From Blasia pusilla (taxonomy: Eukaryota): a DNA stretch of 64,000 nucleotides. The DNA is taken from positions 41,106,001 through 41,170,000 of the forward strand of contig CM114271.1 in the NCBI GenBank assembly GCA_050084515.1, in the 5' to 3' direction. The position numbers and the translations under genes are program-made. The notes under the pieces were generated by a model that was given only the letters and a program-made list of their open reading frames with translations, searched no databases and had not been told where the DNA came from. This document shows, piece after piece, positions 1 through 61,990 of the stretch. Each line of letters begins with the position of its first letter. The first letter of the stretch is position 1.

Positions 1-186
1 GGATACCTTTGAGAGCTATGGTGTGAGATGGTGTAGAGAGAGATTGGATCTTACTTTAATTGGAGATATTTTAGTACTTCTTGTCTCGTTTTTTGGATGC
101 CATGAGTTAACATGGGATCATGCGTGCTTGTGTGTGTGTTCGGTGACAACGATGTATGTTGTGTAGCGATGTGTATACGTACGACA
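1..186 (+). repeat. 3' terminus (end of repeat A joined to repeat B, ending ...ACGACA) of a methyltransferase-family retroelement inserted into the RNase H of element A
   Basis: Bases 1-53 match the reverse complement of ~6777-6830, and 59-186 match 17436-17562. RNase H codons (HFKCYLFGTPFTII, minus strand) begin immediately after 186. Confidence 0.8.
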
Positions 187-189
187 ATG

Positions 190-870
190 ATGATGGTAAA
201 GGGGGTGCCAAATAAGTAACACTTGAAATGCGTGACAGCCCACACTACAGCCAAGCACTCATCCCAATGCCACTCGTGATCCACCTTGGTCAGCAGGGTT
301 AGCGACTTTGCAATCAAACAGAATCCCTTGACGTACCGCCGATAGAAGTTTGCCAATCCCATGAATGCGCGAACACGGTTCGCATCTGTAGGGCGTGGAA
401 TGCGTGAGATAACCTCTACCTTCGTTTGCTAAACACCAAGGCCCCTTGGGTATATCGTATGACCCAAGTACTCAATCTGGTCGTAGAAGAACTTGCACTT
501 GCTTGGATGTAGCTTCAACCCATGTAATTGCAATTGTCGAAACACCTCCTCTAGATGTTGCTCATGCTCCTAAACCGTGGCGCTAAAGACTACAATGTCA
601 TCAATATAACACTTAGCAAAATCCAGACCAGCCAAGATCCTATCCATGACCCTCTGAAATTCAGCCGAGGCGTTCTTTAACCAAAATGGTAAGAACCGCC
701 ACTGGTACAAACAATCCATCCCGTGAGGATTGATGCCCCAAAATGCCGTCTTCTTCGTGTCCTCCAATCTGGTAGGCAGTTGATGGTATCCGCCTCGCAA
801 ATCCAATGAACTGAAGACCTTTGCGTGACCAATCACATCAAAGATCTCCTTAGGGGTGGGCATGGCATAC
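190..870 (-). pseudogene. Reverse transcriptase / RNase H of element A (internal deletions, stops)
   Basis: MPTPKEIFD..FSSLDLRGGYHQL..KTAFW..LPFWLKNASAEFQRVMD..CYIDDIVVFS; GLANFYRRYVKGF; ECLAVVWAVTHF. Confidence 0.9.
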
Positions 871-1289
871 CTATCGGAGGAACTGATGTATCCGGTGCCG
901 CTCTCCTCCTGTCAACTTAGGGCCCATATCTGGCTCCCAAGTCTCCATCGTGACTACGGTAGGACTCTCTGGTGCGGGTATCGGTGGTTGATATGGTACA
1001 ACCCCGTCTCGAACAACAATACTGGTTGCTCTCCTACAGCCAACTGCAAACTCTGATCTCCTCCACGTGTAGTACCCTGAATCACGCTCGATGCTGTGGC
1101 TATCATCTCCTAGCGTACCTGCAAAACATCCCAAGAAGTCCAAGGGTGTCTCTTCCGATCTCCCATGGTGTGTAGATCTCCTCGGGTCTCGCCCCCAACC
1201 ACTACCTCTACCGTCTTTGTAGGCATGGGGCTCACCAACGCAACCGCTGTGATCTGTCGCGATCTCATATGGCGCTGCTCAACCACTCC

Positions 1290-2240
1290 TAAGCTGAGGA
1301 TCCATGTCAAGCAGTTCAGGTCCATCGCCTGACCCAAGACATGGCGTCATGATGCCTCTGACACTGACGGTACTGCCGTCACTCTTATGGGAAATCCCAT
1401 CGCTCGCTCTCTCTTGTCGGCATTGGGCTCCACCAACCACTGAACCTAGTCATCCCCAACCAAGCCAAGACCGGCCTCCTTGTATGCATAGGAAGCGGGA
1501 AAACTCACAAACGTGGGCAAGGTTGCCCGCGGCCTGCCTACCTTGTTGACCATAGTCAACGGTGGTCGATCATCGTGCCTCACTGCCTGTGATCGACAAT
1601 CAGGATCTAGAATGGAATCCACTAACAAATGGGAGGGGCACTCCACTCTCACATACGCCATTGGTAACACCGCATGGGGCACCAAGTTGGTTCACCATAG
1701 ACACGGGCGATGGGCTCTAGAACCTACACTCGCCGCATCCAAGAACACTGCTCGGCCAACCCAGGCACGCACCTGATGAGCACTCGTCACCACCCGTGAC
1801 CTCAAGTCTCCTAAGATTAGCACATTCTCCAGAATGTAAGATGGAGAACGAGACTGGTGCTCCTGCAACTGCCGTAAGACCCTCAACATCTCCCAAAACA
1901 ACCTGGACCGAGTGTCAGCTAGCCCATTGCCTCGTCCAACACTCGATTGGCCCTGACATGGTCAACCGGAGATGACCAAATCAATGGTCCTTACCCGCTC
2001 AAAGTCCTACATCACCAACAATAAAATATCCCTCGGTAGGGAACTCTAGTATCCCTGTACCGCAGACGCAAACAATAAGTTGGGAAAACGTAGGCGTAAC
2101 TGCGCCACATATTGTAGAGAGACGCACCTAGCAACATCATCACTCTCCACATACAGGTACTGCTGCACTCGCACTCCTGCGTGCAAAACAAAAACTAACC
2201 CGGTACTAATCCATCCAAAGAGATCTAACACTTGAATACC
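1290..2240 (-). pseudogene. C5 cytosine DNA methyltransferase domain (DNMT3/DRM-like) inside pol, between protease and RT
   Basis: Motifs occur in canonical order: I IQVLDLFGWISTG; II YLYVESD; IV DLVISG*PCQGQS (Pro-Cys at 1956-1961, read by hand); GLADTRSRLFWE; VI YILENV; VIII DAASVGSRAHRPCLW; IX RERAMGFP; X LGQAMDLNCL. Confidence 0.9.
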
Positions 2241-2650
2241 CTCCTCCGGGATACACCACACAATGGGTGTGGTGTCCAAGGATGTCATCATAGAACTCCC
2301 TGTTCCTCAGACTTGTCACGCTCCGGTGCAAATGCCTCGCTCCACGTGGTCTGCACGTGCTCATCTGCCAATCATCGAAGCTCCTCAATTGAGCCCCACA
2401 ACGGAAGCTCTCCTCCACGGAATGATGCGGCTACCATAACACTCCTCTCCATAGAAATATCAGGAACGGGAGTATCCTTTGCATGGACCTCAATCAAATC
2501 CCTAGGCCAAGTGATGGCACTGCTAAATGATGCTAAGGTCGCCACCTCTCTTGGTCGTTGCTCGATCACTGTACCTGTGAATCGAATGGGTAATGAGCTA
2601 AGGCGCCCATCACCTCGCTGCCAGCATGGTCTGTAGGATGTTGAATCCTC

Positions 2651-3073
2651 CTAGTAATCCAGGGAAAACCCCATCGGGTATAACACTGCTCCACCAACCA
2701 AGACGTTGTAGGACTCTACATCAGTCACTATCGCCTTAGCTTGCACCACGGACTCATCTGTAGGATGTCCCGGGCGAATCCTCACCACAACCTCCTTTTG
2801 GGTGATATGCTGTGTGGTACTCGCTCCACCCAAGGATGTCTATATACGCAATGGACAACGCTCCACATCGGCTCTCATCAAGCCCAATCCACTGAATGAC
2901 GCTTTCCCCAACATCAGGGGTTGCGCTCCTGAATCCAACAAGATGCGATGCAGACTAAAAGCTCTACCTTCGGGACTCACCAATTGGAAGACCTCTCCTC
3001 GGTTATCCGGAAACACAACACCAGAAGAAACCATGGCACGCTCTATCGCGGGTCTAGAGGGCATCTTCGCCAT
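2651..3073 (-). pseudogene. Retropepsin-like aspartic protease of element A
   Basis: RILLDSGAQPLMLG (DSG active site) followed by YNVLVGGAVL (flap/GxD-like region). Confidence 0.8.
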
Positions 3074-3399
3074 CCTAACAACCGCAACCTACCATGAATC
3101 TGACGTGGACGGCTCGAGCATCCGCTCCAAGGGCAGCTCCATCACCTCTAAACGTGATGCAGAAACTCCAACTCCACGCTCACATAGCGTAGTGGCCAGC
3201 GGAAAAGCCTTGGCGGGCGTACCTCCTAACGTCATAACATGGGAAGCACAAAATAAAGGAGTGTGGTACACAATGGTGGCCGCCCCCAACAAAGTGCTTG
3301 ACACATGCCTCTCTTGAGCATCAACAATAGGAGTCTTCGCACTCGCTTCTCCCATCGCCCTCCGTGCCTGCACACCAACAACATCACCAACTCTCTAGG

Positions 3400-4960
3400 A
3401 ACTCTGATCAGGACCCATCGATGGGGTCCTCATCGACTCGGACAACGAGAAAGACTGAGGAAGCCTAGTCTTTTGTGGCTTCTCCTCGCTGTGGATCCAA
3501 CTTTGCGGTTGCACCACGAGTCACAACTGCAACTACCTCCATCTGGGCAACCCCGCACATCCAACCATGATCCTCCATATCTCTGGCTGCTCCATATGAT
3601 GTCGATGCCACGGATCCAGCATCGGGTAATCCTAAATGCCATAGCGGAAATCTGATCCTGTAGCTGATGTTTCTTAGCAACCATCCTAGCCTCACGCTGG
3701 ACATCTCCCTCGACGCGTCTAGGTGGTAGGACTCTACCTCCTCCACGGGCAACTCCACCACCATGTCGGGCAACTCTAGCTCTTTTTCCCCCAACGGGAC
3801 CACTTGGTGCATGATCTCTAGGCCCACCCAGACTGGCTACCCGTTCTGGTGCCCTCTCCGGCCCTCCGTCCGGACGGAACTCTGGATGTAAATTGAAATA
3901 CCTGGTGCGTGCGTGACCATACCTCTGACAAAAGTCACACTGATAACCTCCTGGTGGAGCACCATCTCCTCCTCCATGCTAAGGCACACGTCCATGACCC
4001 TGACGAGTGCAATCGCGCTAATGATGGGCTCCACCACATGACCAACAAGTAATAGTAGGCGGCTATTGCAGAGCCGCATATGAAGGTGCAGGTCTTTGTG
4101 GTACTGCCTCCCGGTATCCTCCCTAAGCTCGTGGTGCCACAGTCGACCTATCTTGGAGTCCACGTTGCTGCACAGGTGGTGGAGCCAATCGTGACTACTC
4201 TCGCCCAGAACCCATGGTGGCTACGCTCTCCTCCGCCATGTTGTGCTCAATGTTCTCGGCGGTCCTAAAAACATCTCTCAAGTAGGGGAGGTGTTCATAA
4301 GAAGCACCCCTCCCGCACCCATGTCCGCAGGGTCCGGTCCAACATCGTGTACCATGATTGGATAGCGTGAGCTTCTGTCACCCCTTGAGTGACGTTGATC
4401 AACCGATGCAAGGGAGTGTAAGCCTCACGTAAACTCTCACCCGGGCGCCTATGGAAGTCGTGGACGCTTCGCAACTTCTCTGTCCGTACCCCTTGGTAGC
4501 TGGACCTCAACTCAACAAAGAATCAACCACGGGGTTGAACTTGGTACAAATCCGACTAGATGGTGCAACTGCTCTACTGCGAGTGACCCCTCCTAAAACA
4601 TCACTAGTGGAAGAGGAAGTAGCCTCTCCTCACTCCTCCTCCTTATCAAGGAACGGCTCCGTCCATGACACATAGTGTGGGTCATAGTGGAGTCCCCATG
4701 CCTCAATCTCCTGGGCATATCTGTGGGAGAACTCATAGTAATCGTCCATGGGCGCCCCCTATAAATGCTACAACATACCGTTCCATGCTGTAAACAGATT
4801 GAACTCTGTAGACTTCCTGGCTCGCTGGGAGTCACACAAACTCCCAAACTCTGCTATGAAATCATGCAACTCAATCGTGCCTACTGCACCTGAAAACCTA
4901 CGCGATCCTCTGCCCCGGTCGTCCATTTCGTATGCCCAACTGGTAGGACCAGTCACAATG
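3400..4960 (-). pseudogene. gag of element A with two zinc-knuckle remnants
   Basis: RRFSGAVGTIELHDFIAEF and RRPGESLREAY (gag MHR-like). Hand translation of ~3900-4050 gives CWSCGGAHH*RDC and CDFCQRYGH. Confidence 0.75.
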
Positions 4961-6776
4961 TGTGGTGATGTGGTGGTCCCTCACGTGGAGACCCTTGGAA
5001 CCTCGCGCCACTCTGCGTAAAACCCCTAGAGCTACTCTCAGGTTCACCACCTCGCCTCTCAAAGTCTCGAACGGACGCCGTGATGACCCTCGTGCCCCTC
5101 TCACCTGATTACTCTCAACCTTGTGAGTAATCCCTTAATCAGTCATCCCAAACATGCGGCACTCGATCTACACTGTCCCTCCCGGATATGTGTAACTTGC
5201 GGCAACATGCGGCGTGGTGTGGCAAATCGACAAGGCTATCATCTCATCAACAACCTACCCTCAACTCCGGACATCCCACACTGGTCTATGTCCCCTAAAC
5301 CACATATATGAATGATGCTCTCAGCATCCACACAACCCAATATCCCCAAATAAACTACCAAAATCCCAGAATCCCTCACACGTGCAGGGTAAAGAACCAG
5401 AATGGGTAACCTGAACACATGTCGATGTCGCTCCTCAGCAACTACAAATCTCGACCCTAACTCGGTCGTGAAGACAACTCCTCCAATCAACAAGTCGTAC
5501 TCCTCTCATACTGTCGCTGCTCAACCTCCTCGATCTGCGGTGCAGGTCGAGCAATTTAGTGTGGCACGGGCGGCACGGAACAACTACAAACAATACGATA
5601 CTTGGAAATGGGGTGCGGAACTTGCCGGCATACCCTCCTCAATCAACAATTCACACGCTCTGCTCCTTAGTGAAGGAGTGGTTCCGCGATCGAGATAGTG
5701 CGGTGCGGCCACGAGCGGCACGACGCAGCAATCGGCGGCGCGTTGCCGCTACGGGCATTATGGCATGGTACTTGATCGTCATCGAGCAGCTACCAATCCC
5801 AACATATCAACATGAAATGAAAACTCAAACACCATAACCCGAGATCACCTGCCATCACTGGTTAGAGACGAAATTGCGATGACGGTGGCGGCCAAACCAA
5901 AGTACGTGGTGGCGGCATAAGTCACATAATCTACGATGGACGTGGAAGACCCTCCACTCCATAATGGCGGCAATGGAAACCAAAGGGTGGACAATGGCCG
6001 AATGCGGCTATGAGCAGCGCTAGGCAACAACAATGGCCGACCGTGGATAGTGAACGGTGGACGGTTAACGGTGACGGTTGATCGTTGCTGGTGACGACGG
6101 ACCGTTGATGGTGATGGTTGACCATCGATGGTGATAGTTGACCGTTGACCATTGACCATTGACGGCGGACCATTGATGGTGACTCTGATGGCGGCGACGC
6201 CGCCGCCAGCCCGGCGGCTGGTTTAGGGTTTGAAGAATTTAACCCTAAACATCGCCTAACAATGGTAGTTTCGCAAGATTGACTATAACATTTTGCTCGC
6301 AATTCCAAATTGCACACCATTTATTGCACAGCCTGCACAACTTGAGGATCTACAAGAGCATCAAAAAATATTTGTAATCTAACATTCCAGTAAAAACTCA
6401 CCGGGACTGTCGTAAACCCAAATGTCTCTTTCTCATACACATAATTTGGTAGCGCTTCCGCGTTGATTTCTCCCAAAAAAACTGTAAAACATGTGAGAAC
6501 ATAAATCAGCAAGCTACATGGTGCTCCTGAGAGCACGGGTATGGGGAAACCCACCTCCATACTCAATCCCTATCAAAAATTGGGCAGCGCTTCCATGCGC
6601 CACTCTTCCACACGAAAAATCGGCAAAAGAAACATCACAAGTAAGCAGCTCCTGCTCCGGTGAGCACTCCCATGAACCGCTAAATGGGGAATATGATCCC
6701 CAGCCTGCAAAACTAGTGAGTGATCAGTGAGCTCCCCCATGAAGCTCTCTCACTCACTCATTCTCTCTTTGTATAA

Positions 6777-7275
6777 TAAGATCCAATCTCTCTCTATACC
6801 ATCTCACACCATAGCTCTCAAAGGTGTGCACTCTCTCTCATGTCAAACCAAACCCACTCTCCTAATGAGAGGCTTAGGTTACACTCACAAGGCAAGGGAC
6901 CATAGTTCTTATGCCAAGAGGTTCAACAAAGATAGAATGAGCTCTCAAGCTCTCTATCTTGGACGTATACCCCCTTCCCTATCCCAAGCCCTCTCAACGG
7001 TAACCTATGCTCGTAGGTCACCTCCTGGCTCTTGACCTACTGTAGCGGGTCAAGGCCACTTCCCAAAGTGGAAAGTCAACTATCTCCAACATGGAAACTT
7101 ACCCTAAATAGTAAGTTTATCTATATGGCTCCAAATGAGCCGAAACGAAGGGGAAACGTGCTCTATCAAGTTTCCCGGAGCCTCAACAGGTCATCATCAA
7201 CGTCCTGGGCATGTCCTCCACTACTTGTGCACACACTCTGCTAGATCCCACTAATCTACACTAACAATCGTAACA
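6777..7275 (-). repeat. 5' terminal repeat A (subfamily 1) of element A
   Basis: Begins TG and is homologous to 1-53 and ~53060-53460. It is followed by unique leader sequence rather than repeat B or a recognisable PBS. Confidence 0.8.
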
Positions 7276-8875
7276 GTCTTCAGTTTGTTGGATCTTCAAG
7301 CCAAATACCATCAGCTGCCTATCAGATTGGAGGACAAGTACAAGACGGCATTTTGGGGCATCAATCCTCACGGGAAGGATCGCTTGTACCAGTGGCGGTT
7401 CTTACTATTTGGGTTAAAGAACACCTAGATAAGTTTCAGACGGTCATGAATATGATCTTGGCAGGTCTGGATTTTGCTAGGTGTTATATTGATGACATCG
7501 TAGTCTTTATTGCCACGGTTGAGGAGGTGTTTTGACGATTGTAGTAACATGGGTTGAAGCTACATCTAGGCAAGTGCAAGTTCTTCTACGACCAGATTGA
7601 GTAACTGGGTCATACCATATACCCAGGTGGCCTTGGTGTGCAGTAGACAAAGATAGAGGCTATGTCATGCATTCCACGTCATACAGATGTGAGTCGAGTT
7701 CGTGCATTCATGGGATTGGCGCACTTCTATCGAAGGAATGTCAAGGGTTTCAGTTTGATTGCTAAGTCGTTGACCTTGCTGACCAAGGTGGATTAGGAGT
7801 CGTACCGGGGGATGAGCATTTTAGCTGCTCAAGGACCGATTGACGTCCGCGCCCATATTGAGGAGACCGATCAGTCCTCTCTAGATGCATGTCGTTTGGA
7901 GCATGTTGGGGCTTGGAGCCGTGCTCACCCAACATGACAATGAGGGTAGAGAGTTCATGGTGGCTTACGCTAGTTGCTCGAAAAACGTTGCGGAGGTGAA
8001 GTATAGCTTGTATGAGGGTGAGTGCTTGGATGTAGTGTGGGCTGTCATGCATTTCAAGTCTTATTTATTAGGAAACTCCTTTAGCATTATTACTGATCAT
8101 GAGCCACTTAAATGGTTGATTGAGTCCGACAAGCTTATAGGAAAGCTTACGAGGTGGGCTCTTTTGTTGAAGGAGTATGACTTCTAGGTGGTACATAGAC
8201 CTGGGACGCTCAACCAAGATGCAGATGGTTTGAGACGTAACCCATACCATAGTCAGCAAGATGAGATTGGAGCTTATTGGCATGAAGAGTGTGATGAGGA
8301 GTTGGTGCCAGGATGGCACGTGTGAGCCTATCGGGGCTTGTTGGCTATGGAGAGCTAGATTATCGAGACTTTGATGATGAGGTCTGATGGAGAGTCCTTA
8401 GATCCAAAGGTCGATGAGGAGATGACCGGTGGCCGAGATATTCACGATGATGGAGTAGTCTTGGAGTACCTGCGTAGTGCTAGCGTCGCGAGCACAGTGG
8501 ATGCTAGAGAGGAGGATTGGATCCTACAGTGACCAGACGGTTCCGGTGGGAGGGGACATATATGTTGCGAGTTTGGGAGGATGATAGAGTACGTGTAGTG
8601 CCTCATCCTTCTCACAGGGCGCGTTTGGTGCGTCATGCCCACAAGAGTTGGATCATTTTGGAGTGAAGCGGGCGTATAGCTTGCTCCAGGTATAGTATTG
8701 GTGGCAAGGCATGTAGACTGATGTTCAACAGTTTTTTGCCAGGTGCATGGTGTGTGATCGGGTCCGGGCATCATTCAATGCTCTGACTCCACAGTTGCAT
8801 CCACTTCCGATCATGGGTTTAGGTTATAGATGGATTTTGGATTTTGTAGGACCTTTACCTTTGATGGAGCTCCAT

Positions 8876-10563: not shown

Positions 10564-11995
10564 CTAACGTATCTGCTTCACTTGCGTTTGCTTGAAGTCT
10601 TGCAACAACTCTTGCGCATGTTCCAAATCCGCCTCCGCAATCCAAGTTGCCTCCTTCATATTGTAGCCCTTCCATTTAACCAAGTATTTGTACTTGTTGG
10701 CCCGACGCCTCGAACGTAAGATGGTCTCCATCTCAAACTCTGGCTCTTCATTTATGATCACCGAGTGCGGTCTCACCACATGTCTCCGCTCAAAACGTCC
10801 ATTATCTTGAAGATATTTCTTCAACAATGACACATGAAAGGTCGGGTGAATCTTGAACTCGTTCGACAGCCCCAATGTATACACATCCTCAAACGGGTTT
10901 GCCACAATCACATACGGTCCAACATACTTGGCAGACAACTTCGCAGAAAACTCTTTCGGAAAAGTGTGATTCTTCACACTCAACCACACTTGCTCTCCAA
11001 CTTGGAATTGTACTTGGCGCCGACTCTTGTTAGCATGCTTAACGTACCTCATTTGAACCTTTGCAAGACTTCGCCTTGCTCGCTCTTCCCGTTCTCGCAT
11101 TTCTACCAACAAACCTTCTGCCGTCGCTTGTCGTGTTCGTGCTAATGTAGTACCCTTCGGAAGGGCTAGGTCAAGAGGCCCTTCTGGCTTTCGTCCATTT
11201 TCCAGGAGAAAGGGAGATTCTCCAATTGCAGAATGCTTGGTCGAGTTGTAGCAGTACTCCGCCATGCTCAACCACTTGACCCAATCTTGTTGATCAGCAC
11301 TGACATAATTCCTTAAGCATTGATTCACGATTGAGTTTACCTTCTCAGTCTGTCCATCCGTCTGTGGGTGGAAAGTCGTATTGAAACTCAACTTGGTCTT
11401 AAACCTCCTGAACAAGTGCTTCCAAAAAGCATTGGTAAACTTTGGATCCCGATCTGAAACAATGCTCCTCGGAAAACCATGAGCACGCCACCAGTTATCC
11501 AGAAATAGTTGCGACGTCGTATAAGCCGTTGTGGAATCCACAGTCGACACGAACCTGGCCAACTTGCTAAACCGATCAACAATCACAAGTACAACGTTGT
11601 ATCCCTAGATTCCGGAAGACTCGTGATGAAATCCATACTCACACTTTGCAAGGGTACTTCTGAGATCGGCAAGGGATGCAGCAAGCCTTGTTTCTTATCA
11701 TAAGAAACTTTATTCGATTGGCAGGTCACACAGGTCTTCACATATTGAGCAACATCCTCTTTCATGTTGGGCCAAAAAACCGCTTCGACAGAACAGCCAA
11801 CCTAGATTTCTCTCCTTTATGTCCTGCCAAGGGTCCGTCGTGACACTCCGCTAACACTTTGGTTCGCATCCTGCCTTGCCCCACATAGATCCTACTCTGC
11901 TTGAACCTTAGTAAACCGTGCCTCAAACTTATGTAGGCCACCTTCTCACCCTGCTTCAACTTCCTCAGGTACTCCCATGTGTGAGCGTCCTTCAT
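10564..11995 (-). pseudogene. Integrase with GPY/F motif and C-terminal chromodomain (frameshifted)
   Basis: HDGPLAGH..CVTC zinc finger, SMDFITSLP, IVSDRDPKF, HPQTDGQTE, KYVGPY, HPTFHVSLLK; chromodomain FEMETILRSRR..KYLVKWKGY..EATW. Confidence 0.95.
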
Positions 11996-12048
11996 ATATC
12001 CTTAACGAATCCTTCTTTCTAGGTCTGTTTCTTTAGGGAACATTGCTC

Positions 12049-44385: not shown

Positions 44386-44574
44386 GACGGTCCATGGACG
44401 TGTCTGCACTTTTTCTGTCCATGTCCGCCCTAGAAGCAGACTTGTCCATTTTTTATCAACCATGTTAATCTGGGTACGGGCGTCAATTTGCCCTTGAGCA
44501 ACTAAAATGTTCCCTCTTACTTATCTCTCCACTGCCAAACATGATCCATCTTGATCAGGAATCAAACTAAATCC

Positions 44575-47500
44575 CTTGGTATATCGTTGGTAAAAGTTCC
44601 TAATCCCATGAATATGCAAACTCAATTCACATTTGTAGGGCGCAAACACGTGAAATAGCCTCTACATTTGTCTCATAAACACTAAGGCCAATTGGGTATA
44701 TCGCATGACCGAAGTACTCAATCTAGTCATGGTAGAACTTGAACTTGCTTGGATGTAGCTTCAGACCATGTAAATGCAATCGTCGAAACATGTCCTCAAG
44801 ATGTCACTCATACTACTCAATCGTGGCGGTGAAGACTACAATGTCATCAATGTAACACCTAGCAAAATCTGTATTAATCCATAAACTGGACAAGATCCTA
44901 TTCATGATCCTTCGAAACTCCACTAGGCATTTTTCAACCAAAAATTAAGATTCGTCATTGTATAAAAAATCCTTTCTGACGATTGATGCCCCAGAATGTT
45001 ATTTTGTGCTTGTCCTCGACTCTGATAAGAAATTGATGGTATCTCGCTCAAAGATCTTTTTATGCCCAATAGCATATATCAAAGATCTCCTCAAGAATGG
45101 GCATATCATACCTATAGGACTTTGTGTGCCAATTGATAGGTCGGCTGTCTCCACACATCCCCCTATTAGTCCAATTGCCATACATATCCTTCTTGGCGCG
45201 CATGATTATGAATATGGTAGATGCATACTCCCCCATACAACATCTCCCATAGTCTTGCCTCAATCAAGTATTGGCTTTTCCTTTGAATCAAGGCTCTCTC
45301 AATGTCACAATACTGGTAGGATCGTCAAAGATCACTGTGTTGTTAGAAAACTCCATGCATATCCTTAGACCTTTTAGTGTACCCAAATCATGCATACTAA
45401 ATGCAAAACAAATCCCATGACTACTAAGGAACCTATGTATCTGATGTTGATCTCCTCATATCAACTTAAGCCCAATGTTCCCACTCTCCGTTATGACTAT
45501 GGTAGGACTATTTAGCCTGGATTTCGGTTGCTATGATGCAACCCCATCAAAAATAGTAGAACTCAACTGATCTCTCTGTAGCCCACTTAGATATCTCATC
45601 TTGTGATGATTCTCGTTGTGCAAGACCATAAACCACACCAATTGCCATCTCTCGGCATACCTGCATCACATCTCGGTCCATGGACATCTCACTTAATCAC
45701 CTCTCATTTTGCAATCTCCTTAGGTCTCGCCCCTAGCCACTGAATGTCCCCTCTTAATAGAAATGAGGCTAACAAGTGCTATAGAGGTGATCTCTCACAA
45801 CCTCATTCAACGCAGTTAGCTACTTTTAGGTTCCAAATCCATATTAAGAAATTCAGGTCCATCGCTTGATCTACAATATGACGTTTGAACGCCTCTAATA
45901 TTAATGGTATTACCTTCACTCTTGTAGGGAATCCCATTGCATGCTCTCTCTTATTGGTGTTCGGCTTCACCAACTATTACACCTAGTCATCCCAAACCAA
46001 GTCTAGACCAATCTCCTTATATGCATAGGAAGTAGGAAAACTCACTAATTTGGAAAATATTGCCTAGGCCATGGCAATCCTATTCACCATAATCAACAAA
46101 GGTCAATCGTCGCGCCTCAGTACTTGGATTGATATCCAAGATCCAAAGTGGAATCCACCAACAAATGGCAGGGCCATTCCTCTTTTGCATATGCTCATCT
46201 TAGAACCTCGTGTGACATCAAGTTAGTCCATCAAAGATGCAATTGGTGTGCTCTTGATCCTACACGCATCCAAGAACAATGTTTGGTCGATCCATGCACG
46301 CACTTGATATACATTCATCACCATACATGACAAGAATTGCTCAAAATTGATATAATCTTTTAGAATAGAAGCTAGAGAAAGAGACTGGTGCTCGTGCAAA
46401 TGTTGCAAGATCCTCAACATCTCCCAAAATATCTAGGATCATCCAAACCACCAGCTCATCCAATACTCGCTCGCCATGCTATGGCCAACCTACAATGACC
46501 AAAATAATGGACAATGACCTAAGTCTTGAGCTCTCGACATGGAAATGTCCTTCGATACAAAAACTTTGATAACCGTGCAGACTTGACGCGGATAATAAGT
46601 CAGGAAAATAAAGTCATACGTGTACTACATGTTGGAGTAAGACATGCCTTCCAAGCTCATCATGCTCCACATACAAATATTGATGTTCGCACACTCATGC
46701 TTGTAACACAGTAGCCAACCCAATAATCAGCCATTCAAAGAGATCCAACACTCTTATATCCTCTAGAATGCACCACAAAATCAGTGTTGTATCTCAGGGG
46801 AAGAACACAACACTCCCTGCTACCTCAGGCACCTCTAACCTATGTCTATGCAAAGGTCTCACTCCACACCATCTACACATGCTCATCGATTAATCGACAA
46901 AGCTCCTCACTTGAGCCCGGTAAAGATACCTCTCCTCCAAAAAATGATTCGGCTACAATAACACTCCTCTTGAGAGGATATTGGTCAAAATTTTGTCCCT
47001 TGTATGGATATAAACCTCAATCAAATCTCCAAGCCAATTAACGGTGTTACTGAATGTAGCTAGAGTTGCCACCCTTATATCTCTTGGTTGTTGCGCGATC
47101 AATCCACTTGTGAATTGCACTGGCATCGAGCTCAGTTACCCATCAATTCTCTACCCTCCTAATCTATAGGAATCAAACTCCTCCAAAAAATCAAGGGTTA
47201 ATTCCATCAGATACAACAATGCTCCACCAACCAAGATGTCATAGGACTCGCCATTGGTCACTATTGCCTTGGCTCGCACCACAGACTCATGAGTTGGATG
47301 TTGTGGTTGAATCCTTACCACGACCTCATGGTGGGTAGTAAATTATACCATACGGGCTCCACCTAGGAAACATATGTATCCTAAATGGGCAACGCTTAAC
47401 ATCAGCCCGCGTCAACCCGAAGCCTATAAATGTTGCCTTTCCCAAAATCAAGGATGTTGTGCTTAAACCCAACAAGACACAATATAGACAATAGACTTTA

Positions 47501-48810
47501 CTTCCTTGGAACCAAAGGCAAGATCTCTCAACTATTATTAAAAAAAAAACACATTGAGAAACCATGACATACTCTATTGTGGGTCTAGGGGGCTTCTTTG
47601 CCATCCTAGCAGCCGCACCGTACCATGAATATGAGGCTCCAAGGGTAGATCCACCACTTCCTTTGCAACTACCTCTAAAATTGAGGCAACAACACCATCT
47701 CCACACTTACATAGTATATATAGCAGCCAGCCAAAAGACCTCGATGGGTGTGACTCCCAATGCCATAACATCGCGAGTACAAGACCACAAGGCACGATAT
47801 GTAACAGTGGCTGCTCCCAACAACACGCACATTTGACTTGGGCTCATTCTAAACATCATATGAGCAAAAGGAGTCATCACAATCACTCATCCCATTTCCC
47901 ATCTTGCCTACAAACCAACAACACACAATCTTCAAGAACTCTAATCAAGACCCATTGATGGAGTCCTCATCGCCTCATACAAAGTAAATGAACGAGGGAG
48001 CTTGGTCTATTTCCTTGTTTTTTCTTGTTGTCCATCCAACTCTATGGTTTCTTCATGTTAAAAATGGTAGTTTCCTCCATCAGTGCAATCCCGCACATCC
48101 AACCAAGATCCTCTATATCCCTAATTTCTCCATACGAAGTGGATGCAACAAACTTGTTATTATGTAATGTTAATGCCATTGCAACAATCTGTTGCTATAA
48201 CTTCTCTATCTTAGCAGCCATCCCAACCTCACGCCCTTGACTTATCTAGGTGGTGGATCTCGACCTCCTCCACAAGAAAATCCACCTCCCCTACAAGCAT
48301 ATTTACCTCCCCGTCCATCTACGAGACCATGTGGGGCACAACCTTTGGCCCCGTCTAGATTTCCAATTCCTTCTAGTACCCTCTCAACTTTTCAAGCACT
48401 AGATCTGCACATAGCTAAGGATGTAAATTGAAACACCTATCCCATGTATGGCCATAGATCTAATAATAATCGTCATAGAAAACTTCTGGTAGGGGCACAT
48501 CTACTCCCAACAACTTCGACACACATCCACTACCATGACAAATGCAATCAAGCTAATCCGCATACGCCCAAAAAATAACTCTTGGTTAGTTTTGACCCGC
48601 ATCCAATGACATAGGTCCTAGAAGCACTAGCTCACGGTAAACCCCTTACACTCTAGGTTCCATACTCCTCTCCCGAGCTACACATTGTTGTATATGCGTT
48701 GTGGGTGCCCCTTGTGGTACCTCTTTGGAATAACCAAAAGCAAAAACACTCTCTTTTGCCATGTTACTCTCTATGCAATCAACCAACTCAAACACATCTC
48801 CGAGTAGTAA
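44575..48810 (-). mobile_element. Element E: strongly decayed copy (gag-PR-MTase-RT)
   Basis: Colinear homology with element A. RT at 44580-45260 (MCGDSRPINWHT..MPILEEIFD); MTase at ~45800-46770 (IRVLDLFEW, VIVGWP*HG, WEMLRILQHLHEHQS, VRAWIDQTLFLDA). Confidence 0.85.
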
Positions 48811-57250: not shown

Positions 57251-57410
57251 CTATACACCTCTCGGACACATCCATCGTCCTGTGGGAACCACATCAAGAG
57301 GGGGGATCAAACATGACATATGCCACCCTTGAGAACAACCATCACATACCAATATGGTGGCTGCACCCCTCGCAGATCCGCACAACATACACCTCAATCC
57401 TGCAGGTACC
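57251..57410 (-). pseudogene. PHD finger at the integrase C-terminus
   Basis: CMLCGSARGAATILVCDGCSQGWHMSCLIPPLDVVPTGRWMCPR fits the C4HC3 PHD pattern; the last Cys is lost or frameshifted. Confidence 0.92.
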
Positions 57411-57920
57411 ACTGCCAAGCTCGGATCCACCGTCCCATCTACGTTCAAAAGATGACATGGTGCACAATTGCGCACATGATCCTTCCAAACCATACCATCC
57501 CGTCCCTCCAACATGAGGACTCCGGTCGGTAATACCTCGCGCACACGTAGGATCGTCCGCCCTGAGTGACATATAGCGTCGTGGGTGCCGCCTGCTATAA
57601 ATACACGTAATCTCCAAGATGAAACCTCATAATCCCTGGACGATAACCTCCTCCACGAATGGTCGCGTACCTCAATGTATCTCTATGATGGGCAATAGCT
57701 AAGTTCTCAAGGCCATAGGCATTACTCTACGAAAAACCTCCGCCCTCTGAGAACATGCTTGTACCCACATATCTGGATCATCAAGATCTAACACCTCCGC
57801 CATGTCATGTCGAATTGCTGCTGGTAAATCAGGCTCTCTCCCAAAGAGCAAAAAGTATGGTGAAAATGATGCCAAGGATGCCTGCCGACTAAAACGATAA
57901 CCCATAGCCAACCATGGCAA

Positions 57921-58562
57921 CTATAGGTCCCACTCCCTCAACTCTCCCCGCTGCAAGCCATACTTGCGCAATCCTCTCTTCACCGTCTGTACCACTCTCT
58001 CCGCCAACCCATCCGCCTTAGGATGATCTCTGGACGTGGTGCAGTGATCTATCAGCGCCTGATCATACAAGGCCTGAAACTCTCCCCTGAACTCGATACC
58101 CTGGTCAGTCAACACCTTCGTCGGTGCACCAAAGTGACTAAGCACACGATCTAGAAACGTATAAGTTGTTCCCTTGCTCGCCTTTTCTGGTAGTGCCACC
58201 AACTCTATCCACTTGGAGAAATGCTCCACCATGACCAACACGTACATATGATGACGCCCCATCAATGGCAAAGGTCCCGCAAAGTCTAAACTCCACCGAT
58301 AACTTAAACCCATAATCGGAAAAGGATGTAATTGCGGAGTGGGAGCATTGAAGGATGCTCGCACTCTGTCACATACCATACATCTGGCCACAAATTGCTG
58401 TATCCCAGTATGCATGCCGCGCCACCAATACTGAACATGGATTAAGCTGTAACTACGCTTTACTCCAAAATGTCCCAACTCCTCATGGGCATGTCGCACT
58501 ACACGTGCTTGCTCGGAAGGATGAGGTACCACTCGTATCCTACCATCTTCCCATACCCGCAA
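57921..58562 (-). pseudogene. DDE (rve) integrase core of element D
   Basis: HEELGH..CMVC zinc finger, WSLDFAGPLP, VLTDQGIEF, HPKADGLAERVVQTVK. Confidence 0.95.
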
Positions 58563-60984
58563 AATGTGAGTCCCCTCCCACCTGAACCTCCTGGCTCTCT
58601 GAAGGATCCGATCCCGCTACCTAGCACTCAATGTACTCGCTATGACGCGAGTGCGCAAGAACTCCACAACCTCCACGTCGTCATGGATATCACGACCACC
58701 TGTCGCCTCCTCACTAACCTCCGGATCGAAAGACTCATCATCCAACCCCACCACTGGAGTCATCACCTGTGGTTGACCTGCCATAGTCAACCAACAAAGA
58801 TAGGCAGATACATGCCAATCGGGCACCATCTCCTCATCACTCTCTCCGTGCCATTGAGCTCCTCTGCCGTCTCTCTGACTCGAACATGGGTTATGACTAA
58901 ACCCATCCGCATCTTGGTTCAGCCAACCTGGCCTATGAAACACCTCAAACTCATACTCCTGTAGTAATAGAGCCCACCTGGCAAGCTTTCCCGTAAGCTT
59001 GTCGGACTCCATCAACCACCTCAACGGCTGATGATCAATGATAAGTGTGAAAGGGTTTCCGAATAAATAGCATCTGAAATGTGCCATGGCCACACTCCAG
59101 CCAACCACTCTCCCTTGTAGGAGATGTACTTCGCCTCTGCAATGTTGTTCGATCGGCTTGCGTAAGCCACAACGAACTCCCTCTCCTCGTCATCCCTCTG
59201 AGTAAGCAGTGCTCCTAGACCCAACATGCTCCAATCTGTATGTAAATGGAATGGGCGACCCCTGACCGGTCTCTGTAAAATTGGCGAGGACGTCAACCTG
59301 TCCTTGAGCTCCTGAAATGCTCGCTCATGATCATCTCCCCACAACCAAACCTGATCAAGTCTCGTCAACAAGGTCAAAGACTTTGCGATCGCACTAAAAC
59401 TCTTGACATACCGTCGATAGAAGTTCGCCAGTCCAAGAAATGCTCAGACTCGACTCACATCTGTAGGGTGTGGAATCTACGCAATAGCCTCTACCTTCGT
59501 CTGCTGAACGCCTAACCTACTCGGGTATATGGTGTGTCCCAAATACTCAATTTTCTCCTGAAAGAATCTGCACTTGCCTGGATGTAACTTCAGTCCATGT
59601 AACTGCAATCTCCGAAATACCTCCTCCACGTGTATCATGCTCCTCAACCGTGGAACTGAAGATAAGAATATCATCTATGTAACATTGTACAAACTCCAAG
59701 CCAGCTAGAATTCTATCCATCACTCTCTAAAACTCTGCATGCGCGTTCTTCAACCCAAATGGTAAGAACCGCCATTGATACAAGCAATTTCTCCCGAACC
59801 AATCTATCCCCTAGAATGCTGTCTTCTCCCTGTCCTCCAACCTAATAGGAAGGTGATGATAGCCAACACGGAGATCTAAAGTACTGAAGATCTTCGCATG
59901 CCCTACTGCATCAAAGATCTCCTCAGGAGTAGGCATGGCGTACCGATGTGACCTCGTCTATCAGTTGATAGGACGGTAATCTCCACACATCCGCCTATCT
60001 GTCTAATTGCCATACATATCCTTCTTCGCCGGCATGACTGTGGCAGATGCATACTCCCCATGTGATAACTCCACAAGTCCTGCCTCCAACAAGTCCTGAC
60101 TCTTGCTCTGAATCAAGGCTCGCTCCATATCCGAATACATGTAGGGACGACCAAAGATCGGCGTATCACTAGCCAACTCAATCCGTATCCTGGGACCCTT
60201 CAGCGTACCCAAGTCTCTCATACTGAAGGAAAAACAACTGACATGCCCTCTCAAAAACCTATGAGCTCGCCGTCGCTCTCCTCCTATCAACTTGAGACCT
60301 ATCACAGGCTCCCAAGTCTCCATCGCGACCTCATTCTGAGAGGACCCAACCTCCGGCTTTGGTTGCTATATAGCAACCCTAGCCACCTCCACAAGAACCA
60401 CTCCACTTTAACCTCCTACACCATGCTCCGCATCTGAAAAATGAACATGTTCTACTCTAGCCGCCTTCGCACTCTGCTCAAACGACGTCCCAGGAAGTCC
60501 ATGGGTGCCTATCTCTCCTCGTCTCGCCCCCAGCCAATGCCTGTATAGACCCTGTACGCAATGGTCCAACTCGTGGACATGACGACATAGATGACACTCG
60601 CATCCATCTTTGCTCAGCCATACCTAGGCTGACTATCCATGTGAGACAGTTGAGGTCCATCGCCTGTCCCAACACCTGTCTCCAGGATGCCTCAGTCATC
60701 CCTGGCACCGCCGTAGTATCGGTAGCGAACCCCATGGCGCGCTCGCGCTCATCTACTGTAGGCTCCTCCAATGCGCCGGTCACCTCCACGTGGTGGAAGG
60801 CAAGGCAAGGACAAGGAAGAAACGTAAAATTGCGTAAGATGGAGGCAAGTAAGAGGAATGAGAAAGAAGGGGAAGGTGGGGCCTACATGGATAAGTCCTT
60901 CCAAAGGACGGACGTATGCCCGCGAACACGGACTTTGTCCATATGCAACCTTGTAGATTAAGGAAACCTATATATCATGGGGCA

Positions 60985-61285: not shown

Positions 61286-61299
61286 GCAATGCAAAAGTA

Positions 61300-61990
61300 T
61301 CTCATCCCTCACCCCTCTCCATAGGTCTTGCTCTAGCATTTCGTGCCATACGTGGACAATATGGGCCTCTATGACCCCCTCAATGTCTCTCACCAATCAA
61401 TGTAGGGGAGTAAATGCCTCTTGCAAATTCTTTCCTATCGGCCTATGAAAGTCGTGTATACTCCATTACTTCTTTCTCTCTATCCCTAGATAAAGAAAGT
61501 AACTACAGGGTTGAACCTCACACAAATTCTACTAGACGACACGCACAACTGTTCTAGTCTAAGTCATCCCTCCAAGACAAGTGGTAGAGGAAATACCCTC
61601 CCCTAGCTCCTCCTCATCTGAAAGCGGCTCAATCCATGACACATAGTGTGGATCATAATAGAGTTTCTAGCCTCAATCTTATGCATCAATCTGATGGAAA
61701 ATTGATGGTAATTGTTAATGGATGCCCCCTCTAGGTGTTGGAACATACTGATTCATATGCATGTTGTGAAAAGATTGAAGTCTCTGGAGTTCCCACCCCT
61801 CTATGAGTCACACAAACTCCTTAACTTCACTATGAAGTCATGCAACTTAAAGGTATCCACAAACCCTTAAAACCTACCAAGTGCTTTGCCGTGGTCGTCC
61901 ATCTCATACGTTCAAGTGATGACACCACTCAATGTGTGAGATGATGCACTAACAAACTCCCCCTCTAAGACCTCTCTCTTGTCCATAGAA
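61300..61990 (-). pseudogene. Decayed gag fragment of the same family
   Basis: 61780-61915 is colinear with 4790-4935 (LHDFIV..SLCDS). Confidence 0.7.

What the first reader, a model, noticed from the sequence alone, without database searches (positions are those of the whole stretch)
1290..2240. Gypsy-like retrotransposon family carrying its own DNMT3/DRM-like C5 DNA methyltransferase inside pol
Seen: a full ordered set of C5-MTase motifs (I, II, IV Pro-Cys, VI ENV, VIII, IX, X) sits between protease and RT on the pol strand. The same position is used in three diverged copies (A 1290-2240, E ~45800-46770, D 60478-60789), so this is a family trait and not a one-off insertion. Known: motif VIII DAxxVxxxAHRxRxxW resembles DNMT3/DRM enzymes, and MTase-bearing retrotransposons have been reported in dinoflagellates and the charophyte Klebsormidium; I do not know of a well-characterised example in land plants. 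Inference: the enzyme would be packaged with RT and integrase and could methylate the cDNA or the insertion site.
Basis: partly seen in the sequence, partly recalled or inferred. Interest (0 to 1): 0.92.

Follow-up and report, generated by a model that had tools for sequence, protein, structure and literature searches.

The report
Gypsy retrotransposon carrying DNMT3-like methyltransferase
The window holds three dead copies of a jumping gene that carries its own DNA-methylating enzyme, a kind of element first described in a green alga and here found, abundant and transcribed, in what looks like a liverwort-like land plant.

Summary
Window 1278-2258 (minus strand) is one frame of 327 codons, broken by six stop codons. 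It matches Pfam PF00145 (E 5.5e-10), and among solved structures it matches the DNMT3A/B/C catalytic domain best. It lies between the protease region and RT of a Ty3/Gypsy-order element. Copy E (45815-46763) keeps a badly decayed version. Copy D (60613-60771) keeps only the last 53 residues. All three copies are dead.

The domain is a family trait. I collected 266 related proteins. Uninterrupted polyproteins from Closterium, Klebsormidium nitens and metagenomes, and a partial Marchantia model, carry it in frame upstream of RT. The catalytic Cys, the ENV Glu and the motif VIII Arg are invariant.

The K. nitens relative is the published KnitGypsy-Dnmt3 kind (de Mendoza 2018). This is therefore a new member of a known kind. 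My literature searches found no description of it in land plants.

In runs with the same species label, reads from about 1% of a WGS run pile roughly 1,000-3,000 deep on copy A, and the family is transcribed strand-specifically.

The function (methylating its own cDNA or insertion site) remains inferred. The K. nitens domain gave no methylation in yeast, which the authors called inconclusive. No host DNMT3 or DRM sequence could be fetched, so the origin of the domain is untested.

The parts
1278..2258 (-). Copy A: DNMT3-like C5 cytosine methyltransferase domain. One frame, 6 in-frame stops, motifs I to X in linear order.
2324..3620 (-). Copy A: protease region (D-S-G at 2935-2927) plus the unassigned stretch before the MTase. 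A frame change separates it from the MTase at about 2324-2300.
   Evidence: Pfam gave no hit on the short ORFs alone. Relatives P0017, P0045 and P0048 carry aspartyl protease families at the matching place.
3877..4911 (-). Copy A: gag-like region
   Evidence: tblastn with Marchantia P0006, residues 9-354
258..1277 (-). Copy A: linker and reverse transcriptase, in the same frame as the MTase. RVT_1 hit on the ORF at 570-911.
51..428 (-). Copy A: start of RNase H, broken off near 190-264 where an unrelated repeated sequence begins. The rest of the element is missing or off the window.
45815..46763 (-). Copy E: decayed MTase remnant in several frames. The motif IV Cys codon is a stop and ENV is lost.
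44560..48557 (-). Copy E as a whole: gag 48230-47374, PR region 47342-46473, MTase, RT 45479-44645. About 67% nucleotide identity to copy A.
60613..60771 (-). Copy D: last 53 residues of the MTase domain. The upstream part is deleted or replaced.
59580..60365 (-). Copy D: reverse transcriptase
58617..59443 (-). Copy D: RNase H
57921..58616 (-). Copy D: integrase (zinc-binding H2C2 plus core domain)
57251..57682 (-). Copy D: C-terminal extension after the integrase, with a PHD finger at about 57391-57260
61292..61887 (-). Copy D: gag N-terminal remnant

Best explanation
Window 1278-2258 (minus strand) is the decayed DNMT3-type C5 cytosine methyltransferase domain of a Ty3/Gypsy-order retrotransposon. 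The polyprotein order is gag - protease - DNMT - RT - RNase H - integrase - PHD finger. The domain is an inherited part of the family. The same arrangement occurs in Marchantia, Closterium and Klebsormidium nitens (the published KnitGypsy-Dnmt3 kind), and close relatives of the domain occur in Calypogeia and Sphagnum. The window's copy sits inside the bryophyte branch of that family.

The three window copies are dead: stops, frame changes and a deletion, with C-to-T type decay. The family as a whole is very abundant in this species and is transcribed from the sense strand.

How it works is inferred, not shown. The enzyme is translated as part of gag-pol. It would therefore sit next to the newly made cDNA in the particle or the pre-integration complex, and would methylate the element's own cDNA or the DNA at the new insertion. 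I give this step about 0.4. The identity and family-trait part I give about 0.95.
For: Identity:
- PF00145 E 5.5e-10 on copy A itself.
- phmmer of copy A against PDB: best match DNMT3A at 1.1e-9.
- Profile of 26 trimmed domains against PDB: DNMT3A 2e-27, DNMT3C 2e-24, DNMT3B 7e-24, tobacco DRM 5.7e-17, Arabidopsis DRM2 1.3e-13, HhaI 7.5e-11. No DNMT1 among 57 matches.
- AlphaFold2 model of the closest uninterrupted relative's domain (Calypogeia P0002, residues 308-634): pLDDT 94.4, pTM 0.92.
- Foldseek top hits are all DNMT3A/B/C, best 6f57_D at E 5e-20, TM 0.84.

Family trait and frame:
- In the 3 window copies that keep the junction, the domain has the same place.
- Closterium P0023 (1928 aa) reads zf-CCHC / DNMT / RT / RNase H / integrase. 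Marchantia P0007 reads DNMT / RT / RNase H. K. nitens P0046 reads DNMT / RT / RNase H / integrase.
- Of 266 related proteins, 24 show DNMT upstream of RT or RNase H.

Constraint:
- Cys101, Glu144 and Arg184 are invariant in 26 domains. Motifs are conserved over 134 full-length domains.
- Mean DNMT identity is 39% against 44% for the RT core over 28 pairs of distant elements.
- Third-codon-position excess between window copies. A against E: MTase 0.390 vs 0.253 (p 1.8e-5), RT 0.296 vs 0.191. A against D: RT 0.408 vs 0.161, MTase tail 0.407 vs 0.111.

Placement: in the careful tree of 51 rows, copy A lies in a 100/100 group of 12 with Calypogeia, Sphagnum and Marchantia. That group sits with the Closterium and Klebsormidium groups on one side of a 100/99 branch, against the chlorophyte-type elements.

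Abundance and expression:
- 82,392 DNA reads from about 1% of a WGS run lie on 250-5000 at 80% likeness or more. Only 65 of them are 99% alike or more.
- Three RNA runs give depth 8-139 with the first mate on + against 0-14.5 on -.
- At two of copy A's six stops, about 97% of DNA reads and nearly all RNA reads differ from copy A.
Against: - No enzymatic evidence exists for this Gypsy type. The K. nitens domain gave no methylation in yeast, which the authors call inconclusive because human DNMT3B also failed.
- All three window copies are broken. Copy A has lost a motif I glycine.
- No terminal repeats were found around any copy. 'LTR element' therefore rests on gene order and relatives only.
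- No host DNMT3 or DRM sequence could be fetched. 'DNMT3-type' rests on E-value and fold ranking against animal and plant structures, not on a tree.
- The sense-strand reading assumes the common library type in which the first mate is antisense (tool text).
- Transcription of a roughly thousand-copy family does not show that any copy still transposes.
- In the quick tree of 84 rows, one long-branched chlorophyte-type row (P0103) attached beside the streptophyte clade with weak support of 62. It was among the 33 rows I left out of the careful tree.
Confidence: 0.85

Rival explanations
1. The domain is kept by selection but does not methylate DNA. It serves as a DNA- or chromatin-binding or scaffolding module, or it methylates the element's RNA.
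For: The KnitGypsy-Dnmt3 domain induced no methylation in yeast. De Mendoza et al. raise RNA methylation for their LINE-type DNMT. No PWWP or ADD reader accompanies the domain.
Against: - The catalytic Cys, the ENV Glu, the motif VIII Arg and the motif I glycines are invariant or nearly so across the family. A non-catalytic module would not need them.
- DNMT2-type RNA enzymes match far worse than DNMT3 (about 2e-10 against 2e-27).
- The yeast result was called inconclusive by its authors.
Confidence: 0.2
2. The enzyme is active, but it acts mainly to silence the element's own copies (self-limitation) or to disturb host methylation in trans. It does not act on cDNA during the transposition cycle.
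For: De Mendoza et al. propose self-limitation as one option. The family is very abundant and transcribed. The copies here show CpG depletion (observed/expected 0.48-0.69) with TpG excess (1.41-1.47), as methylated DNA does.
Against: CpG depletion is similar across the whole window (0.67). It need not come from the element's own enzyme. No data bear on where the enzyme acts.
Confidence: 0.2
3. The methyltransferase stretch is a captured host gene fragment or an assembly chimera in single copies, not part of the element.
For: None beyond the decayed state of the copies.
Against: - The domain has the same position in three diverged window copies and the same frame as RT in copy A.
- Uninterrupted ORFs of 1,900-2,360 aa contain both DNMT and RT (P0023, P0076, P0233, P0241).
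- Thousands of genomic and RNA reads cover the junctions.
Confidence: 0.01

Closest known systems
KnitGypsy-Dnmt3 of Klebsormidium nitens (de Mendoza et al. 2018, PMC5890265; sections 9-11 and passages read)
   Same: Both have a DNMT3-like, non-rearranged C5-MTase inside the pol of a Gypsy-order element. A K. nitens protein (P0046) has DNMT upstream of RT, RNase H and integrase, as in the window. The domains are homologous (40% identity over 270 residues to copy A). They fall on the same side of a 100/99 branch. Both show signs of purifying selection (paper: Ka/Ks < 0.2; here).
   Different: The host is a probable bryophyte, not a charophyte alga. The window's family has a PHD finger after the integrase, and Pfam found none in P0046. 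The family is very high-copy here, whereas the paper says K. nitens has fewer DNMT-encoding copies (than Symbiodinium). The paper describes DIRS-like repeats, and I found no terminal repeats. The paper treats the capture as specific to the K. nitens lineage; the distribution seen here argues for an older, shared family.
Chlorophyte-type Gypsy elements with RT - RNase H - DNMT - integrase - PHD (Haematococcus, Scenedesmus, Cymbomonas and many metagenome proteins; no published name known to me)
   Same: They have a homologous DNMT domain (31-41% identity to streptophyte-type domains), a Gypsy gene order, and a PHD finger after the integrase.
   Different: The DNMT sits between RNase H and integrase, not between protease and RT. 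It forms the other side of the 100/99 split. This type gave 102 of the 266 collected proteins, against 24 of the window's type.
Animal DNMT3A/3B/3C catalytic domains
   Same: They are the best sequence-profile and fold matches, with the same linear motif order.
   Different: Identity is only about 24% in the structural alignments. There are no PWWP or ADD domains. The domain is embedded in a retrotransposon polyprotein.
Plant DRM1/2 (domains rearranged methyltransferases)
   Same: They are relatives within the DNMT3 group and match the N-terminal motifs I-IV.
   Different: DRM is circularly permuted and this domain is not. Matches are weaker and cover only profile positions 6-139.
SymbioDIRS-Dnmt3 / SymbioLINE-Dnmt of dinoflagellates (de Mendoza et al. 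2018)
   Same: Both are retrotransposons that carry a C5 DNMT. The DIRS type methylates CG in yeast.
   Different: They belong to different retrotransposon classes, and the authors judged them independent captures. I made no sequence comparison here.

Membership tests
C5 cytosine DNA methyltransferase (Pfam PF00145) | Profile match above the curated cut-off | tested here: met
   39.6 bits against 22, E 5.5e-10 on copy A read with X at its stops. 30.3 bits on the single 89-aa ORF.
C5 cytosine DNA methyltransferase (Pfam PF00145) | Motif IV Pro-Cys catalytic dipeptide | tested here: met
   Present in copy A at 1961-1956, with a stop codon directly before it. Cys is invariant in 26 family domains. 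In copy E the Cys codon is a stop.
C5 cytosine DNA methyltransferase (Pfam PF00145) | Motif VI Glu-Asn-Val | tested here: met
   Present in copy A within 1838-1821. Glu is invariant and Asn nearly so in the family. Lost in copy E.
C5 cytosine DNA methyltransferase (Pfam PF00145) | Motif I glycine-rich AdoMet loop (name of the motif recalled) | tested here: not met
   In copy A one of the conserved glycines is replaced by Trp. The family keeps it. The failure is that of a dead copy, not of the family.
C5 cytosine DNA methyltransferase (Pfam PF00145) | Methyltransferase fold | tested here: met
   AlphaFold2 model of the closest uninterrupted relative's domain, pLDDT 94.4. 228 PDB matches at E <= 0.001, with DNMT3 enzymes at the top.
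DNMT3 subfamily | Closest to DNMT3 among solved C5-MTases by sequence profile and by fold | tested here: met
   The Atlas structure search also puts chordate DNMT3A first.
DNMT3 subfamily | Falls inside the DNMT3 clade in a tree with host DNMT3, DRM, DNMT1 and bacterial enzymes | not tested
   None of the three homology searches returned a host DNMT3 or DRM, so there was no outgroup.
DNMT3 subfamily | N-terminal PWWP and/or ADD reader domains (typical of animal DNMT3; recalled) | tested here: not met
   No PWWP or ADD family in 13 proteins scanned, nor in the precomputed Pfam column of 96 proteins.
DRM (domains rearranged methyltransferase) | Circularly permuted motif order (VI-X before I-V) | tested here: not met
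   Copy A and the family have I, IV, VI, VIII and the C-terminal motifs in linear order. DRM structures match only the motif I-IV part.
KnitGypsy-Dnmt3-type element | DNMT3-like domain inside the pol ORF of an element with Gypsy gene order | tested here: met
KnitGypsy-Dnmt3-type element | DNMT domain groups with that of the K. nitens element | tested here: met
   Same side of a 100/99 branch in the careful tree and of a 98 branch in the quick tree. The root is unknown.
KnitGypsy-Dnmt3-type element | [quoted passage not shown] | tested here: met
   Third-position excess between window copies. DNMT is conserved about as well as RT across distant elements. No proper dN/dS on young copies was possible.
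KnitGypsy-Dnmt3-type element | DIRS-like arrangement of terminal repeats (figure legend of the paper) | tested here: inconclusive
   No terminal repeat pair was found around copies A or D. Copy A runs into another repeat and the window edge.
Ty3/Gypsy LTR retrotransposon | Order protease - RT - RNase H - integrase | tested here: met
   Copies A and D and their relatives.
Ty3/Gypsy LTR retrotransposon | Long terminal repeats flanking the element | tested here: inconclusive
   None detected with 11-base seeds and a 40-base minimum. The copies are old and interrupted.

The most novel reading that the evidence does not exclude
A single ancient capture of a DNMT3-type enzyme by a Gypsy lineage with a PHD-tailed integrase happened at or before the split of chlorophytes and streptophytes. 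It has persisted ever since, into land plants, with the domain moved once between two positions in pol.

The element would then carry a self-contained 'read and write' chromatin kit. The PHD finger would choose the chromatin and the DNMT would mark the DNA. At about a thousand transcribed copies, the element-encoded enzyme could contribute measurably to de novo methylation in bryophyte genomes.

Marchantia has seemingly uninterrupted gene models of this family. That would make the open question of what transposon-borne DNMTs do directly testable in a tractable plant.
Probability: 0.25. Interest if true: 0.8.

Novelty: new member of a known kind. Interest (0 to 1): 0.55.

Why it matters
Cytosine methylation is the host's main weapon against transposons, so a transposon that carries its own de novo methyltransferase is a paradox. 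Its purpose is still unknown. The only published Gypsy-type case is in the alga Klebsormidium, was presented as a lineage-specific capture, and gave no activity in yeast.

This finding and its relatives show that the same family is present in land plants: liverworts and Sphagnum. In this species it is highly abundant and transcribed. A sister architecture is common in chlorophytes. That shifts the picture from a curiosity of one alga to an old, successful strategy of green-lineage retrotransposons. It also points to Marchantia as a model in which the function could be tested.

The three copies in this window are themselves ordinary dead transposon remnants.

Tried and rejected
- Whole genome: none is held for this window. 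No census of uninterrupted copies, LTR ages or proper dN/dS was possible.
- Host DNMT3/DRM outgroup: three homology searches returned transposon polyproteins only. They were copy A against longer proteins; the Closterium domain; and a profile of 26 domains against longer proteins. The representative search lists only the best 150 of 1,780 hits, all at E <= 2.6e-30.
- Terminal repeats: none were found around copies A or D. The only direct repeat (137 nt at 56417 and 57037) belongs to another repeated sequence.
- Pfam on the short protease and gag ORFs of copy A gave nothing. The protease is assigned from the D-S-G motif and from relatives.
- The look-up of sequencing runs: no RNA holder was listed among the indexed runs. 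The RNA evidence comes only from laying raw reads.
- ESM Atlas by features: one Streptophyta cluster and phage methylase clusters at score 0.96. It added nothing beyond 'C5 methylase'.
- Literature: searches found no paper that describes DNMT-bearing Gypsy elements in Marchantia or other bryophytes, and neither did the passages read. Subscription journals, Repbase and all supplementary files were not searchable. The DNMT3 tree in the supplement of PMC12344493 and the supplements of PMC5890265 may hold such sequences.
- Considered and dropped:
  - Assembly chimera or single host-gene capture (see rivals).
  - DRM identity (motif order).
  - Reading the ORF at 871-1278(-) as coding. It is in another frame than pol, and the pol frame runs through it.
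Full report
WHAT IS THERE

On the minus strand, window 2258 to 1278 reads as one frame of 327 codons with six stop codons, three TAG and three TGA. With X at the stops, it matches Pfam PF00145 at 39.6 bits (cut-off 22, E 5.5e-10). PF00145 is the only family found. Even the single 89-residue open stretch at 1692-1961 passes the cut-off.

The motifs stand in linear order:
- motif I at 2228-2196
- motif IV with Pro-Cys at 1973-1944
- motif VI Glu-Asn-Val at 1838-1821
- motif VIII at 1742-1683
- the C-terminal motifs at 1415-1389 and 1337-1314

Copy A is damaged. One stop lies directly before the Pro-Cys, another lies inside motif VIII, and one conserved glycine of motif I is replaced.

SURROUNDINGS

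tblastn with uninterrupted relatives lays out copy A on the minus strand as follows:
- gag at 4911-3877
- protease region at 3620-2324
- methyltransferase at 2300-1125
- RT down to 258

An Asp-Ser-Gly motif lies at 2935-2927. The start of RNase H is at 51-428. An unrelated repeated sequence then cuts in near 190-264.

The methyltransferase and RT share one frame: a single alignment to Marchantia P0007 covers 2240-285. Between the protease region and the methyltransferase, copy A changes frame at about 2324-2300. Copy E does not, so that change is damage in copy A.

Copy E (44560-48557) is about 67% identical to copy A at the DNA level. It carries the same domain at 45815-46763, but in several frames. 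The motif IV Cys codon is a stop, Glu-Asn-Val is lost and motif VIII is partly deleted.

Copy D has the following parts:
- gag N-terminus (61887-61292)
- an inverted RNase H fragment (60958-61280, + strand)
- the last 53 residues of the methyltransferase (60771-60613)
- RT, RNase H and integrase
- a PHD finger at the very end (Pfam E 4.1e-10)

A search of the whole window with the Calypogeia domain finds only these three places. A fourth copy of the family (B, 7276-8863, + strand) is cut off upstream of RT and is uninformative.

IS IT A FAMILY TRAIT?

Yes. Copy A's domain found 25 longer proteins at E <= 0.001 among 4,170 candidates:
- 15 from Marchantia polymorpha
- 1 from Calypogeia fissa (the closest, 64% identity)
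- 2 from Sphagnum
- 1 from Closterium
- 6 unnamed

A search with the Closterium domain added Klebsormidium nitens, more Closterium and Haematococcus. A full scan of 1.84 billion cluster representatives gave 1,780 proteins at E <= 0.001, 561 at <= 1e-10 and 144 at <= 1e-30. A profile search gave 96 more long proteins, all of them transposon polyproteins.

Pfam scans give these domain orders:
- Closterium P0023: zinc knuckle, DNMT, RT, RNase H, integrase, in one 1,928-residue protein
- Marchantia P0007: DNMT, RT, RNase H
- K. nitens P0046: DNMT, RT, RNase H, integrase

The K. nitens protein belongs to the species in which de Mendoza et al. described KnitGypsy-Dnmt3. They describe a non-rearranged Dnmt3-like domain in the pol ORF of a Gypsy element, under purifying selection (Ka/Ks < 0.2) (PMC5890265, section 9 passages).

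I classified the 266 collected relatives with my own script, using phmmer with RT, RNase H, integrase, PHD and protease pieces of two members:
- 24 have DNMT upstream of RT or RNase H, the window's type
- 102 have DNMT after RT or RNase H, mostly RT - RNase H - DNMT - integrase - PHD
- 27 show DNMT followed by integrase only
- 113 show no RT, RNase H or integrase (fragments, or gag-protease-DNMT proteins)

Named members of the second type are chlorophytes: Haematococcus, Scenedesmus and Cymbomonas.

WHAT KIND OF METHYLTRANSFERASE?

A profile of 26 trimmed domains (alignment A1) was searched against all PDB sequences:
- DNMT3A: 2e-27
- DNMT3C: 2e-24
- DNMT3B: about 7e-24
- tobacco DRM: 5.7e-17, covering only the motif I-IV part
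- Arabidopsis DRM2: 1.3e-13, covering only the motif I-IV part
- HhaI: 7.5e-11
- DNMT2: about 2e-10
- DNMT1: none among the 57 matches

I folded the domain of the closest uninterrupted relative (Calypogeia P0002, residues 308-634) with that alignment. The model has pLDDT 94.4 and pTM 0.92. Its Foldseek hits in the PDB are led entirely by DNMT3A/B/C. The best is 6f57_D at E 5e-20, TM 0.84 by target, 24% identity.

The motif order is linear, so this is not a DRM. No PWWP or ADD domain accompanies it. I could not fetch any host DNMT3 or DRM sequence. 'DNMT3-type' therefore rests on these rankings and not on a tree.

IS IT UNDER CONSTRAINT?

Across 26 domains, the catalytic Cys, the Glu of motif VI, the Arg of motif VIII and nine other columns are invariant. 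The same motifs stand out over 134 full-length domains drawn from clusters that are at most 50% alike.

Over 28 pairs among eight distant elements, mean identity is 39% for DNMT and 44% for the RT core.

Between the window's own copies, differences pile up at third codon positions of copy A's pol frame:
- A against E, methyltransferase: 0.390 against 0.253 at positions 1+2 (p 1.8e-5)
- A against E, RT: 0.296 against 0.191 (p 0.003)
- A against D, RT: 0.408 against 0.161
- A against D, methyltransferase tail: 0.407 against 0.111 (27 codons, p 0.005)

So the domain evolved as coding sequence, like RT, before these copies died.

TREE

A quick tree of 84 domain rows and a careful tree of 51 of them agree. 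For the careful tree I thinned near-duplicates and several long branches by hand, dropping 33 rows.

The chlorophyte-type rows (16 in the careful tree) are split from all others (35) by a branch with support 100/99. Copy A lies in a 100/100 group of 12 rows with Calypogeia, Sphagnum, Marchantia and two unnamed proteins. The Closterium group (100/99) and the Klebsormidium group (98/94) lie outside it.

One result goes against a clean split. In the quick tree one long chlorophyte-type row (P0103, branch 1.08) attached next to the streptophyte clade with weak support (62). It was among the rows dropped.

The trees are unrooted. The order Klebsormidium, Closterium, bryophytes resembles the host phylogeny. 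Inside the bryophyte group, however, Sphagnum joins Marchantia (96/84) to the exclusion of Calypogeia, which does not.

THE FAMILY IN THIS ORGANISM

The organism is coded in the run tables. From the tree I take it to be a bryophyte, probably a liverwort. This is inference only.

I laid three RNA-seq runs and one WGS run of the same species label on window 250-5000, counting reads from 80% likeness.

DNA:
- 82,392 reads were laid from about 1 in 100 of the run.
- Depth is 485-1,564 in each of the two mate-orientation columns.
- Only 65 reads are 99% alike or more. 55,823 are under 90% alike.
- If the 99% class stands for copy A itself (about 2-fold depth), the family has on the order of a thousand copy-equivalents. 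This is a rough inference.

RNA:
- 2,692, 2,292 and 3,052 reads were laid.
- Depth is 8-139 with the first mate on the + strand, against 0-14.5 on the - strand, in all 30 bins.
- Under the usual library chemistry, this means RNA of the minus strand, the sense strand of pol.
- Only 2, 0 and 2 RNA reads are 99% alike or more. The transcripts therefore come from other copies.

Stops:
- Two of copy A's six stop codons (at 1692-1694 and 1962-1964) appear in the table of differences.
- There, about 97% of DNA reads and nearly all RNA reads differ from copy A. These stops are private to copy A.
- The other four stops are not among the 40 rows shown; 1,928 rows were not shown.

Decay:
- Of those 40 best-supported differences, 21 are places where copy A has T or A and the family has C or G. 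Only 7 go the other way.
- Among all 1,169 variable places in the DNA run, 596 are C>T or G>A and 295 are the reverse.
- The copies are CpG-poor (observed/expected 0.48-0.69) and TpG-rich (1.41-1.47).
- All of this fits decay of methylated DNA.

HOW IT PROBABLY WORKS

Shown: the domain is part of the gag-pol reading frame, is conserved like RT, keeps all catalytic residues in the family, and is transcribed.

Inferred: it is made with RT and integrase, travels with them, and methylates the new cDNA or the DNA at the insertion site. De Mendoza et al. argue the same for their DIRS-type elements, whose DNMT does methylate CG in yeast. The KnitGypsy-Dnmt3 domain gave no methylation there, and they call that inconclusive because human DNMT3B also failed (section 10). 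They list possible benefits: escaping recognition as foreign DNA, protection from editing, shaping chromatin at the insertion, or self-limitation (section 11).

I put about 0.4 on methylation of cDNA or the insertion site, about 0.2 on a non-DNA-methylating role and about 0.2 on self-silencing or action in trans.

The PHD finger behind the integrase is most like PHD fingers of PHF12, KDM5A/B, CHD4, DPF3 and PHF21A. From memory, several of these read the unmodified H3 tail. It may steer integration, as chromodomains do in chromoviruses. This is a lead, not a result.

NOVELTY

The kind is known (KnitGypsy-Dnmt3, 2018). What seems new:
- its presence in land plants
- its abundance and transcription there
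- the PHD tail
- the fact that the family spans Klebsormidium, Closterium and bryophytes, with a sister architecture in chlorophytes

That breadth argues against a capture confined to the K. nitens lineage.

My searches found no paper saying this. [quoted passage not shown] Supplements, Repbase and subscription journals were not searchable. The Marchantia proteins are public gene models, so others may have seen them.

VERDICT

This is a new member of a known kind. The three copies here are dead remnants. The interest lies in the family, not in this locus.

Noticed in passing
window 57251-57682 (-), PHD at about 57391-57260: Copy D's integrase is followed by a PHD finger (Pfam E 4.1e-10). Its best PDB matches are PHF12, KDM5A/B, CHD4, DPF3 and PHF21A. 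Integrase followed by PHD is also the rule in the chlorophyte-type relatives. It may target integration to a chromatin state.
   Followed up: partly
related proteins P0045, P0070, P0256, P0043 and about 100 others: There is a second, more numerous architecture, RT - RNase H - DNMT - integrase - PHD. It occurs in chlorophytes (Haematococcus, Scenedesmus, Cymbomonas) and many metagenome proteins, with a homologous DNMT domain. I know of no published name for it.
   Followed up: partly
DNMT tree: Sphagnum (moss) domains join Marchantia (96/84) to the exclusion of Calypogeia and the window's copy. This does not follow the host tree. It could reflect old sub-lineages of the family or transfer between bryophytes.
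   Followed up: no
relatives P0017, P0019, P0202, P0207-P0223 (unnamed) and Marchantia P0005, P0006, P0008: Many gag-protease-DNMT proteins end about 80-160 residues after the DNMT domain, on contigs of 7-10 kb. In part of the family, RT may therefore lie in a separate frame or ORF.
   Followed up: no
window 7276-8863 (+): A further copy of the same family (B; RT, RNase H, start of integrase) is 82-90% identical to copy A in RT. It is inverted relative to A and cut off upstream of RT, so it has no methyltransferase part.
   Followed up: partly
window 56417-56553 and 57037-57173; also 143-189, 6777-6825, 17435-17562: A short repeated sequence unrelated to the element forms a 137-nt direct repeat, 95% alike and 620 bases apart, just downstream of copy D. 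It also appears where copy A's RNase H breaks off. It is probably the end of another transposon.
   Followed up: no
window 60958-61280 (+) and 58960-59058: An inverted RNase H fragment sits inside copy D at the place of its deleted gag-protease-methyltransferase part (inverted repeat, 99 nt, 76% complementary).
   Followed up: no
window 37928-38713 (-), 44032-44358 (+), 11002-13305 (-), 16255-17043 (+): Two more pieces of the family are present: a gag N-terminus 55% identical to Marchantia P0006, and a protease piece. There are also Gypsy copies (RT to integrase) in which no methyltransferase was found. The window is a nest of old retrotransposons.
   Followed up: no
window 336-368: RNA reads of all three runs (5, 14 and 7 reads) skip 31 bases here, while no DNA read does. 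This could be a small splice-like joint or a variant among transcribed copies.
   Followed up: no
window 877-878: Hundreds of DNA and RNA reads stop matching copy A on both sides of this point (loose ends). Copy A probably has a rearrangement there relative to most of the family.
   Followed up: no
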